From: Escherichia coli
GTDB lineage: Bacteria > Pseudomonadota > Gammaproteobacteria > Enterobacterales > Enterobacteriaceae
Length of the DNA stretch: 64,000 nt
Reading direction: 5' to 3' (one strand)
NCBI RefSeq assembly: GCF_036507355.1
Contig: NZ_AP027877.1
Positions 12,001-15,000 of the stretch are shown here, piece by piece. The first letter of the stretch is position 1. Each line of letters begins with the position of its first letter. A program made the position numbers.

Positions 12001-15000
12001 TGATCGTTTAGGTGAGCTGGCGATTGTTAAGCGTCGCACTGGTGGCTATGACGGACGCGGTCAATGGCGTTTACGCGCCGATGAAACCGAACAGTTACCG
12101 GAAGAGTGTTACGGCGAATGTATTGTCGAGCAAGGCATTAACTTCTCTGGTGAAGTATCGCTGGTTGGCGCGCGCGGCTTTGATGGCAGCACCGTGTTTT
12201 ATCCGCTGACGCATAACCTGCATCAGGACGGTATTTTGCGCACCAGCGTCGCTTTCCCGCAGGCCAATGCGCAGCAGCAAGCGCAAGCCGAAGAGATGCT
12301 TTCGGCGATTATGCAGGAGCTGGGCTATGTGGGCGTGATGGCGATGGAGTGTTTTGTCACCCCGCAAGGTCTGCTGATCAACGAACTGGCTCCGCGTGTG
12401 CATAACAGCGGTCACTGGACACAAAACGGTGCCAGCATCAGCCAGTTTGAGCTGCATCTGCGGGCGATTACCGCTCTGCCGTTACCGCAACCGATAGTGA
12501 ATAGTCCGTCGGTGATGATCAACCTGATTGGTAGCGATGTGAATTATGACTGGCTGAAACTGCCGCTGGTGCATCTGCACTGGTACGACAAAGAAGTCCG
12601 TCCGGGGCGTAAAGTGGGGCATCTGAATTTAACCGACAGCGACACATCGCGTCTGACCGCGACGCTGGAAGCCTTAATCCCGCTGCTGCCGTCAGAGTAT
12701 GCCAGCGGCGTGATGTGGGCGCAGAGCAAGTTCAGTTAAGCAGGTGCTCATTTGATTGCCGGATGCGGCGTAAACGCCTTATCCAGCCTACCGATCCGGC
12801 ACCCATTGTAGGCCTGATAAGATGCGTCAAGCGTCGCATCAGGCATTGTGCGCCAATTGCCGGATGCGGCACCAATTGTAGGCCTGATAAGACGCGTCAA
12901 GCGTCGCATCAGGCATTGTGCGCCAATTGCCGGATGCGGCACCAATTGTAGGCCTGATAAGACGCGTCAAGCGTCGCATCAGGCACAAATGTCTAATGCC
13001 TACAACTACAGCGAAATACAGGTCCCCGCTTCGCCCGCCAGCGTCTCTTCAATCCGCGATAACGCCCCAATCCACGCGGGTTTACCACGGCTTCTGACAT
13101 AACCACTCACCGCCGTTACCTTCGGCCCCATCGAACCATCGGCTTTGGCAAATGGCGCTAACTCATCCGGTGTGGCATGGCGAATGGCACGTTGCTGCGG
13201 CGTTCCCCAGTTTTCATATACCGCATCAGCATCGGTGAGGATCACCAGTCCATCGGCGTTAATTTGCTCGGCGAGCAACGCAGCGGCGAGATCTTTATCA
13301 ATCACTGCTTCACTCCCTGCTCCGTCATCCGTCACAGGCACACCGCCGCCGCCACTGCAAATCACCACATGCCCCTCTTTGAGCAACAACTCGATGGCTT
13401 CGCTGTCGAGAATTTTACGCGGTTGCGGAGACGCCACCACCCGGCGTAAATATTTACCATCACGTTTCATCTGCCAGCCGTAAGCCGCTTCCAGTGCCTC
13501 TTGTTCTTCTGGCTGATAAACCGGACCAATAAATTTCTCTGGCTGCAAAAACGCCGGATCATCAGGCGAAACCTCAATGCGCGTCAGCACCGTCGTCACG
13601 GGCGGCATCTGCGGCTGTGCGCTCAAACTCTGCGCCAGCATATAGCCAATCATCCCCTGACTTTCTGCCACCAGCACATCCAGCGGATACGGTTCTACCT
13701 CTTTCCACGCCAGATTCTGCAATGCCAGCAGCCCCACCTGCGGCCCGTTGCCGTGAACAATCGCCAGCCGATAAGAACGGGCCAGGCGCGCCAGCGCGGG
13801 TACAGCACTGGCGATATTGCGATATTGATTTTCTGCCGTCAGCGCCTCACCGCGCTGAAGCAAGGCATTGCCCCCAAGAGCTACAACCAGTATTTTCATG
13901 GTTTTCCTTGTAATAATTGTTGACCAAGCCAGAACCCCAGCAGTGTATCTGCCCCTGACGTATGCCCCAGCGCCAGCAGCGAATCAATCGCAACAGCGGT
14001 ACGTTTCGGGCAACTCAGAGCATGAACAAAGTGCAGGAGTGGCGAGGCGAAATATCCTTGCGCGGCATAACGTAAATAACTGACGCTCACCGCTGTGGTA
14101 ACGAGTTGCAGATTGTCGGAACAGGCAAAAAACGGACGACCGGAGCGCGCATCTAAAGCGCCATAATACCAGGCCGCCAGCAGCATTCCGCTCAGCGTGT
14201 CATCATGACTCGGCGTTAATCCGGGGCCTTTACCCAGCCAGTGTCGCCAGTCGGTCTTAACGCCATTGAGCGCGGCCTGAAAACAGTGACGAAACTGGCG
14301 TAACTCAGCAGGCAGCGGATCGCTTGCCGCCAACGCCAGTGGCCCGAAAAGCCCGGTTTCCTCCGCGCGTTGCATCCATGCAGCTGCAAGTGGTTGAGGA
14401 TGCGCAGGCGGCGTAATACGCAGCAAACAATAACGCTGTGGCTGTTTAACCGTGAAACGCCCGAGGCGAATCCCTTGAGCCACAACCTGTGGTCGTTCAT
14501 TGCCGCATAATCCACCGCATAACGCATCGAATTGCGCACGGCGAAGCACCCATCCTCCGGGGCCGAAACCACTACCCTGACGATGCAGCGTTAACAGTTC
14601 GCCGCTTTCCGTCATCAGGTTAATCGCCCGCCGCCACACTCCCGCTAACCGCCAGGACTGGCGATAATTCGGTGCGCTACTACTGGCAAGCAGAGGATGG
14701 ATGATCGTCATTGCGCGTTCCTCAACCAATACCCATGCTTTCAGCCAGTGCTTCCAGCGCCTGTTCAAAACACGCCAGCGGTGCCCGCACAGTGCCTGCG
14801 CCAATCTGCCCGATCCCCGCCTCTTTATGGGCGATACCGGTATTGATGAGTGGCGTAATGCCGGTTTCTACCACGCGACGAATGTCCAGTCCCAGGCACG
14901 CGCCCTGAAAATCCCAGCTTGGGATCTGCAACTGCATATTGCGTTCAAGGTAAATTTCCGCCATCTCTTCAGATACCGCCCTGGCCGCTTCCATGCCACC

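What the first reader, a model, noticed from the sequence alone, without database searches (positions are those of the whole stretch)
12758..12985. Tandem REP array after purK with unusually high unit identity
About 3.5 copies of a ~68-70 bp unit are nearly identical, including the stretches between the palindromes. This suggests recent expansion by slippage or recombination. The array lies between the convergent purK and arcC-like genes and may act as a terminator or mRNA stabiliser.
Basis: seen in the sequence. Interest (0 to 1): 0.15.

Follow-up and report, generated by a model that had tools for sequence, protein, structure and literature searches.

The report
Ordinary REP/BIME-2 repeat array after purK
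This is a standard E. coli REP (BIME-2) repeat cluster between the purK and carbamate kinase genes that carries one extra 70-base unit compared with its closest relatives, which is ordinary strain-to-strain variation for this repeat family.

Summary
The repeat is real and the coordinates are accurate. It fills the 266-bp gap between convergent purK (11672-12739, +) and the ybcF-type carbamate kinase gene (13006-13899, -).

**Anatomy**
- There is one intact Y-type REP and three Z2-type REPs in the opposite orientation.
- There are two 12-nt stubs of Y REPs that have lost 31 nt.
- The period is therefore 101 nt once, then 70 nt. TRF reports 2.8 copies at 97%, not about 3.5.
- 92 nt are repeated exactly at an offset of 70.

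**Comparison with other strains**
- The same locus in 5,426 complete E. coli genomes carries many alleles: one Y-Z2 unit, one full plus one truncated unit (K-12), 2, 3 or 5 canonical 100-nt units, or no REP at all.
- The closest haplotype (strain 33F4) differs in the intergenic region mainly by one 70-nt unit (plus two point differences), so a recent unit-length duplication is well supported.
- Only two other genomes carry two truncated units, and they do so on a very different haplotype.

**Assessment**
- High identity between units (93-99%) is normal for BIME-2 arrays, not unusual.
- No intrinsic terminator is present.
- The array most likely acts as a hairpin barrier and leaky attenuator for both convergent mRNAs. 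This is inferred from the literature and was not tested here.
- The feature is already known and of low interest.

The parts
11672..12739 (+). purK (5-(carboxyamino)imidazole ribonucleotide synthase) CDS, with stop codon TAA at 12737-12739. The first REP begins 18 nt after the stop.
   Evidence: ORF list. NCBIfam NF004678, E 1.5e-202. Stop codon checked.
12740..13005 (.). The 266-bp convergent intergenic region, almost entirely filled by the REP array.
12758..12791 (+). The only intact Y-type REP (GCCGGATGCGGCGTAAACGCCTTATCCAGCCTAC). It has 1 mismatch to the Y pattern, and its CTAC end points toward the first Z2.
   Evidence: the DNA search. As RNA the hairpin folds at -15.1 kcal/mol on the + strand and -18.7 on the - strand.
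12808..12844 (-). Z2-type REP number 1, with 1 mismatch to the pattern (GATGCG variant).
   Evidence: the DNA search. Hairpin -20.0 (+) and -15.5 (-) kcal/mol.
12859..12870 (+). Y-REP stub number 1 (GCCGGATGCGGC). The 3' part of the Y REP and part of the linker (31 nt) are missing. The deletion lies between the near-repeats GATGCGGC and GATCCGGC seen in the first unit.
   Evidence: Sequence reading. The first unit is 101 nt against 70 nt for the others. The stub region has no significant fold, z about 0.
12878..12914 (-). Z2-type REP number 2, an exact match to the pattern.
   Evidence: the DNA search. Hairpin -21.8 (+) and -21.3 (-) kcal/mol.
12929..12940 (+). Y-REP stub number 2, identical to stub number 1.
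12948..12984 (-). Z2-type REP number 3, an exact match to the pattern. It begins 21 nt after the ybcF stop codon on the - strand.
   Evidence: the DNA search. Stop codon position.
12824..12985 (.). Exact tandem duplication: 12824-12915 is identical to 12894-12985 (92 nt at an offset of 70). This is one 70-nt unit more than in strain 33F4 and K-12.
   Evidence: with the comparison of alleles.
12985..13005 (.). Right border ACAAATGTCTAATGCCTACAA, containing a GCCTAC REP-tail remnant at 12998-13003. It is one of two alternative right-border alleles in E. coli.
13006..13899 (-). Carbamate kinase gene (ybcF / arcC-like), convergent with purK.
   Evidence: ORF list. NCBIfam NF006926, E 1.5e-186. RefSeq annotation of homologous loci.

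Best explanation
The feature is the E. coli purK-ybcF BIME-2 element, a cluster of REP palindromes made of Y and Z2 REPs in alternating orientation.

**History of this allele**
- An old 31-nt deletion removed most of the Y REP from the second unit, creating a 70-nt unit of Y stub, linker, Z2 and linker. K-12 and about a third of E. coli carry this deletion.
- In the lineage of this window, that 70-nt unit was recently duplicated once.
- The most likely cause is unequal homologous recombination or replication slippage between the near-identical neighbouring units. This step is inferred.

**Likely function (inferred from published REP work, not shown here)**
- On either mRNA the array folds into three or four stable hairpins that start about 20 nt after each stop codon.
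- These hairpins would block 3'-to-5' exonucleases, protecting the purEK and ybcF messages.
- They would also attenuate read-through into the convergent gene in a leaky, partly Rho-dependent way.
- As DNA, the array is a candidate gyrase site.
- The extra copy is probably close to neutral.
For: **Identity**
- The Y pattern matches at 12758-12791 and the Z2 pattern matches three times on the opposite strand. None were expected by chance.
- The same REP types occur at other sites in the window.
- The query hits a median of 19-26 places per E. coli genome.
- The only Rfam similarity is to naRNA4, the Y-l-Z2 unit of REP325, at 24-44 bits (PMC4550694).
- There is no IHF consensus in the array, so it is not BIME-1.

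**Locus homology and polymorphism**
- K-12 and 15 other strains carry REP arrays at the same site. They hold 1, 1+1 truncated, 1+2 truncated, 2, 3 or 5 units, or none.
- An evenly spaced sample of 57 locus hits gave 21 K-type alleles (one full plus one truncated unit), 24 single-unit alleles, 9 alleles with 2-5 units and 2 without any REP.

**Recent duplication**
- A 92-nt exact repeat lies at an offset of 70.
- The nearest haplotype, 33F4, lacks one 70-nt unit.
- Two truncated units in tandem occur in only 2 of 5,426 genomes. Their flanks are only 96.25% and 94.0% identical to the window, and their linkers differ. That points to an independent event.

**Structure**
- Individual REP hairpins fold at -15 to -22 kcal/mol.
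- The whole array folds at -125.5 kcal/mol on the + strand and -126.6 on the - strand, with z-scores of -6.3 and -6.6.

**Literature**
- BIME-2 definition, conserved tandem copies and strain-variable number: PMC3333891.
- REP325 as both a terminator and a stabiliser, and 207 of 704 convergent gene pairs containing a REP: bioRxiv 10.64898/2026.03.23.713779.
- Gyrase cleavage of BIME-2 elements: PMC6379681.
Against: - No expression, 3'-end or half-life data for this locus were found, so the functional part rests on analogy.
- The scan found no intrinsic-terminator signature.
- The Harris et al. preprint reports that REP effects depend on context and that terminal REPs do not uniformly lengthen mRNA half-lives.
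- Gyrase prefers Y over Z2 REPs (PMC6379681). This array has only one intact Y, so its value as a gyrase site may be low.
- The duplication mechanism cannot be told from sequence. TnpAREP cleaves at C|T sites such as TGCC|TGAT, which recur exactly every 70 nt on the - strand, and it can act hundreds of nt from an intact REP (PMC3333891).
- A copy-number error in the assembly of the source genome cannot be excluded.
Confidence: 0.85

Rival explanations
1. The extra 70-nt unit was added by the REP-associated tyrosine transposase (TnpAREP/RAYT). Single-strand cleavage at C|T sites followed by strand transfer would add the unit, rather than host recombination or slippage.
For: TnpAREP cleaves and recombines BIMEs in vitro. 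It has been proposed to add BIME units locally (PMC3333891). Its type I site TGCC|TGAT occurs at each Z2 on the - strand at an exact 70-nt spacing. An intact Y REP with GTAG on that strand is present at 12758-12791. Cleavage can occur more than 400 nt from the bound REP.
Against: The duplicated unit lacks a complete Y REP, so it is not a REP/iREP pair as in the published amplification models. A perfect 92-nt tandem repeat is itself an excellent substrate for RecA-mediated unequal exchange or slippage. Those mechanisms need no special enzyme. Whether the source strain has tnpAREP is unknown.
Confidence: 0.2
2. Copy number at this locus is under selection. The number of hairpins would tune termination and stabilisation of the convergent purEK and ybcF transcripts, and the three-Z2 allele would be an adaptive setting rather than neutral drift.
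For: REP325 produces a ladder of truncated transcripts, consistent with serial leaky terminators or exonuclease roadblocks. Harris et al. propose REPs as tunable dials on expression. The locus shows many alleles across strains, and two truncated units arose twice on different haplotypes.
Against: The alleles range from 0 to 5 units with no obvious constraint, and one allele lacks REPs altogether (L009). The three-Z2 state is very rare, at 2 of 5,426 genomes plus this window. No expression data exist for any allele.
Confidence: 0.12
3. The extra copy is an assembly artefact, a miscounted tandem repeat in the source genome.
For: No genome among the 5,426 complete E. coli assemblies has this exact 266-bp allele. 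Short tandem repeats can be miscounted in assemblies.
Against: The whole array is only about 230 bp and each unit is 70 nt, which ordinary reads easily span. Two independent complete genomes carry the same 1+2 arrangement on another haplotype. The arrangement is therefore biologically attainable.
Confidence: 0.05
4. The array encodes naRNA4-like nucleoid-associated small RNAs that act with HU.
For: Six sub-threshold Rfam hits to naRNA4 (RF02564) cover the array on both strands, the best at 43.8 bits with E 4.9e-06.
Against: All hits fall below the gathering score of 59.5. The similarity only reflects the shared Y/Z2 REP sequence. The truncated units lack the Y hairpin of naRNA4. The chromosome-compaction role of REP325/naRNA4 was itself not reproduced by Harris et al..
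Confidence: 0.03

Closest known systems
BIME-2 elements of E. coli (Gilson/Bachellier classification; Ton-Hoang et al. 2012, PMC3333891), specifically the REP cluster between ybcF and purK of K-12 MG1655 (NC_000913 551333-551526)
   Same: It sits at the same chromosomal site. It uses the same Y and Z2 REPs in alternating orientation with short linkers and has the same 31-nt-deleted second unit as K-12. The units are tandem and near-identical, and copy number varies between strains.
   Different: It has one more 70-nt truncated unit than K-12 or 33F4, and there are a few point differences in the linkers. Only 2 of 5,426 complete genomes share the 1+2 arrangement, and they do so on another haplotype.
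REP325 (yjdM-yjdN BIME-2 array, source of naRNA1-6; Qian 2015 PMC4550694; Harris 2026 bioRxiv 10.64898/2026.03.23.713779)
   Same: It is a tandem array of Y-linker-Z2 units with near-identical repeats and identical inter-unit spacers, and it lies in a 3'UTR. Rfam naRNA4 gives the only similarity found, and it is below threshold.
   Different: REP325 has six complete 77-bp Y-l-Z2 units and lies between tandem genes of one operon. This array has one complete unit plus two Y-less units and lies between convergent genes. No experimental data exist for it.
BIME-1 / RIP elements (Y - L linker with IHF site - Z1)
   Same: It belongs to the same REP superfamily and shares the Y REP.
   Different: There is no Z1, no long L linker and no IHF consensus in the array. 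A true BIME-1 with the IHF consensus lies elsewhere in the window, at 34707-34804.
Intrinsic (Rho-independent) terminators
   Same: It has GC-rich hairpins directly downstream of stop codons, and between convergent genes they could act on both strands.
   Different: No T/U tract follows any hairpin, and the scan found 0 sites.

Membership tests
REP / palindromic unit (PU) sequences of E. coli | An imperfect palindrome of about 35-40 nt with a conserved GTAG/CTAC tetranucleotide at one end, matching the Y, Z1 or Z2 consensus. | tested here: met
   The Y pattern matches at 12758-12791 with 1 mismatch. The Z2 pattern matches at 12808-12844, 12878-12914 and 12948-12984 with 1, 0 and 0 mismatches. 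None were expected by chance. The hairpins fold at -15 to -22 kcal/mol. The consensus strings were supplied from memory. Their recurrence at other sites in the window and across E. coli genomes supports them.
REP / palindromic unit (PU) sequences of E. coli | Extragenic location and many dispersed copies per genome. | tested here: met
   The array lies wholly between the stop codons of purK and ybcF. Further REPs lie at 34707-34804 and 43245-43330 in the window. The query matches a median of 19-26 places per E. coli genome.
BIME-2 | Built from Y and Z2 REPs in alternating (inverted) orientation, separated by short linkers. | tested here: met
   The first unit is Y on the + strand, a 16-nt linker, then Z2 on the - strand. 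Units 2 and 3 keep Z2 but hold only a 12-nt stub of Y. The array is therefore a BIME-2 with degenerate units.
BIME-2 | Occurs as tandem copies that are well conserved within a locus, with a number that varies between strains. | tested here: met
   TRF reports a 70-nt period at 97%. Alleles with 0, 1, 1+1, 1+2, 2, 3 and 5 units occur at the same locus. Within-array identity is 93-99%. The definition is taken from PMC3333891.
BIME-2 | Assignment of linkers to the named motifs S, s, l and r. | not tested
   The consensus sequences of these linker motifs were not available in the text I could read.
BIME-2 | Bound and cleaved by DNA gyrase in vivo. | not testable with these tools
   The published gyrase cleavage maps that I could search do not list this locus.
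BIME-1 (RIP/RIB) | Y and Z1 REPs separated by a long L linker carrying an IHF site. | tested here: not met
   There is no Z1 and no WATCAANNNNTTR match within 12740-13005.
naRNA4 (Rfam RF02564) | Score at or above the Rfam gathering threshold of 59.5 bits. | tested here: not met
   The best hit scores 43.8 bits.
Intrinsic terminator | A GC-rich hairpin followed directly by a T/U tract. | tested here: not met
   0 sites on either strand in 12400-13400.
CRISPR array | Identical repeats separated by unique spacers. | tested here: not met
   The stretches between the palindromes are themselves identical between units.
REPIN / RAYT system | An inverted REP doublet plus a cognate tnpAREP (RAYT) gene in the genome. 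| not tested
   The Y-Z2 pair of unit 1 is an inverted doublet. I did not search the window for a tnpAREP (RAYT) gene, and the rest of the genome is not available.

The most novel reading that the evidence does not exclude
A 70-nt unit that has lost its Y REP, leaving a Y stub plus Z2, has still been amplified. This happened at least twice independently, in this window and in the A16/ETEC6335 haplotype. If confirmed on a phylogeny, it would show that local growth of BIME arrays does not need an intact REP/iREP pair. Growth would then be driven by host recombination or slippage rather than by the REP-associated transposase. A further possibility is that the hairpin number tunes termination between the convergent purEK and ybcF transcripts.
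Probability: 0.35. Interest if true: 0.2.

Novelty: already known. Interest (0 to 1): 0.07.

Why it matters
It matters little. The element belongs to the longest-known repeat family of E. coli and sits at a locus where K-12 already carries it. Copy-number polymorphism of BIME-2 arrays between strains is a published property.

Its modest value is as a clean natural example. A degenerate, Y-less unit has expanded by exactly one copy, within a locus that shows a full allelic series of 0 to 5 units. That series could serve as a ready-made set of natural variants for testing how the number of REP hairpins affects termination and mRNA stability between convergent genes. It could also help test whether array growth depends on TnpAREP or on host recombination.

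Tried and rejected
**Rfam.** A scan of 12000-13800 at a permissive E-value gave only sub-threshold naRNA4 hits, which reflect shared REP sequence. No other RNA family matched.

**Promoters and terminators.** The scan found no terminator-like site and only one weak promoter-like match inside purK, which is no more than chance.

**Locus-specific experimental data.**
- A full-text search for 'repetitive extragenic palindromic' plus purK gave only irrelevant papers.
- The supplements of Harris et al. list purK and ybcF only in differential-expression tables for other mutants, not as REP targets.
- The gyrase cleavage supplements do not mention the locus.
- The TRS 3'-termini supplements and the Herzel et al. 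text have nothing on purK or ybcF.

**CRISPR.** This reading was rejected because the spacers are identical.

**Coding reading.** The mechanical ORFs running through the array (12715-12951 +, 12748-12945 -, 12848-13102 +) consist of repeat sequence that is absent or different in other strains. I did not pursue them.

**Translational down-regulation by a REP within 15 nt of a stop codon** (Liang et al. 2015, as summarised in PMC12306157). This is unlikely here because the gaps are 18 nt for purK and 21 nt for ybcF.

**BIME-1.** Rejected because there is no Z1 and no IHF site.
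Full report
**Observation**

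The region 12740-13005 is the 266-bp gap between two convergent genes. The upstream gene (11672-12739, + strand) is purK (NCBIfam NF004678, E 1.5e-202). The downstream gene (13006-13899, - strand) is a carbamate kinase of the ybcF/arcC type (NF006926, E 1.5e-186).

Tandem Repeats Finder reports one array at 12793-12985, with a 70-nt period, 2.8 copies, 97% matches and score 365. The repeat finder reports three 70-nt copies. It also reports three copies of ATTGCCGGATGCGGC spaced 101 and then 70 nt apart. At an offset of 70, positions 12824-12915 are identical to 12894-12985 over 92 nt, including the stretches between the palindromes.

**Anatomy**

- A 34-nt Y-type REP pattern matches once in the array, at 12758-12791 on the + strand with 1 mismatch.
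- A 37-nt Z2-type pattern matches three times on the - strand, at 12808-12844, 12878-12914 and 12948-12984, with 1, 0 and 0 mismatches.
- No matches to either pattern occurred in 100 shuffles.

The array is therefore Y, linker, Z2, then twice the block [linker, Y stub GCCGGATGCGGC, 7-nt linker, Z2]. The stubs lie at 12859-12870 and 12929-12940. Compared with the first unit they lack 31 nt, namely the 3' part of the Y palindrome and part of the linker. The deletion lies between the near-repeats GATGCGGC and GATCCGGC, as read directly from the sequence.

The description of about 3.5 copies of a 68-70-bp unit is therefore imprecise. There are three Z2 REPs spaced 70 nt apart, one complete Y REP and two Y stubs. 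The first unit is 101 nt long.

As RNA, the intact REPs fold into hairpins of -15 to -22 kcal/mol on either strand. The stub region has no significant structure, with z about 0. The whole array folds at -125.5 kcal/mol on the + strand and -126.6 on the - strand, with z-scores of -6.3 and -6.6.

**Family**

Y and Z2 REPs in alternating orientation with short linkers, in tandem, is the definition of BIME-2 given by Ton-Hoang et al. 2012 (PMC3333891).

- There is no Z1 REP and no IHF consensus in the array, so it is not BIME-1.
- A genuine BIME-1 with an IHF consensus in its linker lies elsewhere in the window, at 34707-34804.
- A single Z2/Y pair lies at 43245-43330.
- The only Rfam similarity is to naRNA4, the Y-l-Z2 unit of REP325. 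All six hits score 24-44 bits, below the gathering score of 59.5 (PMC4550694).
- There is no intrinsic-terminator signature on either strand.
- It is not a CRISPR array, because the spacers are identical.

**Comparison across strains**

The window is E. coli, at 97.4-98.6% identity to K-12 over 5 kb. A 901-nt query found the locus in 4,916 of 5,426 complete genomes at 80% coverage or more.

Alleles read directly from 16 strains:

| Allele | Intergenic length | Example strains |
|---|---|---|
| Single Y-Z2 unit | 126-138 bp | BL21, O157:H7 |
| One full plus one truncated unit | 194-206 bp | K-12, 33F4, GF3-3 |
| Two canonical 100-nt units | 233 bp | SWHEFF_68 |
| Three canonical 100-nt units | 333 bp | IPCEC48 |
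| Five canonical 100-nt units | 532-533 bp | WP3-S18-ESBL-08, GPEC1210 |
| No REP, a different GC-rich element | 152 bp | AH20K059 |

An evenly spaced sample of the ranking gave 57 locus-level records:

| Allele class | Records of 57 |
|---|---|
| One full plus one truncated unit | 21 |
| Single unit | 24 |
| Two to five canonical units | 9 |
| No REP | 2 |

(One partly matched record was not classified.)

No genome in the collection has the window's 266-bp allele. A 128-nt probe spanning two truncated junctions was covered in full by only two genomes, A16 and ETEC6335. Both have a 278-bp intergenic region with one full and two truncated units. Their inter-unit linkers and right border differ from the window. 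Their flanks are only 96.25% (purK end) and 94.0% (ybcF end) identical to the window.

The closest haplotype is strain 33F4, at 99.75% identity over the last 400 nt of purK. Its intergenic region differs from the window mainly by one missing 70-nt unit (plus two point differences).

I draw three inferences:
- The 31-nt deletion is old and widespread.
- The extra 70-nt unit in the window is a recent, exact, unit-length duplication.
- A similar expansion happened separately on another haplotype.

**Is the identity unusual?**

No. Units within the 5-unit and 3-unit arrays at this locus, and within the 5-unit array at yjjW-yjjV, are 93-99% identical to each other. Ton-Hoang et al. state that tandem BIME copies at one locus are well conserved and that their number varies between strains. 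REP325 likewise has highly homologous repeats, two of them identical, and spacers of exactly the same sequence.

**Mechanism of expansion (inferred)**

A 92-nt perfect tandem repeat is an ideal substrate for unequal RecA-mediated exchange or replication slippage, and I consider that the most likely route.

The REP-associated transposase TnpAREP cannot be excluded, for three reasons:
- It needs an intact REP with GTAG on the same strand, and the Y REP provides one on the - strand.
- It cleaves at C|T sites such as TGCC|TGAT, which recur every 70 nt at the Z2 elements.
- It can act hundreds of nt from the REP it binds.

However, the duplicated unit is not a complete REP/iREP pair as in the published amplification models.

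**Function (inferred from the literature, not tested here)**

The first REP starts 18 nt after the purK stop codon. The last starts 21 nt after the ybcF stop codon on the other strand. Each convergent mRNA would therefore end in, or run through, three or four strong hairpins.

- REPs protect upstream mRNA from 3'-to-5' exonucleases and can attenuate transcription (references collected in PMC12306157).
- REP325, also a BIME-2 array, was shown to be both a partly Rho-dependent terminator and an mRNA stabiliser. REPs lie in 207 of 704 convergent intergenic regions (Harris et al., bioRxiv 10.64898/2026.03.23.713779).
- The same preprint stresses that these effects depend on context.
- Both gaps exceed the 15-nt limit reported for REP-induced ribosome stalling (Liang et al. 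2015, as cited in PMC12306157), so that mechanism is unlikely here.
- BIME-2 elements are also gyrase cleavage sites, but gyrase prefers Y over Z2 (PMC6379681). Only one Y is intact here.
- I found no locus-specific 3'-end, half-life or gyrase data.

**Verdict**

The element is a textbook BIME-2 REP cluster at a locus where K-12 has the same element. The only special feature is one extra copy of an already degenerate 70-nt unit, which is a rare allele of a highly polymorphic locus. The claim of unusual identity is not supported. The feature is already known, and interest is low.

Noticed in passing
L009 641-792 (E. coli AH20K059, purK-ybcF intergenic region); the same allele in H38, H138 and H139: Some E. 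coli strains have no REP at all at this locus. They carry instead a 152-bp intergenic region with a different GC-rich palindromic element (...CCCTCACCCTAACCCTCTCCCCACAGGGGCGAGGGGAC...). From memory it resembles the 'boxC' repeat family, but I did not test that.
   Followed up: no
window 34707-34804: A Y REP and a Z1 REP sit in inverted orientation, separated by a linker that holds an exact IHF consensus (AATCAATATATTG at 34753-34765). This is a BIME-1 / RIP-type element.
   Followed up: partly
window 43245-43330 and 40257-40282: A single Z2/Y REP pair lies at 43245-43330. A short REP-like perfect palindrome, GCCGGATGCG...CGCATCCGGC, lies at 40257-40282. I did not examine the neighbouring genes.
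   Followed up: no
window 12340-12739 and 13006-13405, compared with L001-L016: The last 400 nt of purK and of ybcF are unusually diverse among E. coli strains, at 94.0-99.75% identity to the window. The two flanks rank the strains differently: O157 is 95.75% on the purK side but 99.5% on the ybcF side. The BIME locus therefore appears to sit at a recombination mosaic boundary.
   Followed up: partly
window 12985-13005, and L004/L005/L006/L012/L016 right borders: Two alternative right-border sequences of the array exist in the species: CACAAATGTCTAATGCCTACRA (window, K-12, 33F4, PK8275) and ATGGTGCRCCGATTGCCGGATGCTCTCATCA (BL21, O157, GF3-3, A16). They combine freely with different left parts, which again points to recombination within the array.
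   Followed up: partly
L014 578-1093 (yjjW-yjjV intergenic region of strain ECCWS199): Another BIME-2 array has five 101-nt units. It starts with a differently truncated Y REP (GCCGGATACGGCCTAC, loop and inner stem missing), so internally deleted Y REPs are not peculiar to the purK locus.
   Followed up: no
window 12715-12951 (+), 12748-12945 (-), 12848-13102 (+): Mechanical ORFs of 65-84 codons run through the repeat array. Gene callers could mis-annotate them as hypothetical proteins.
   Followed up: no
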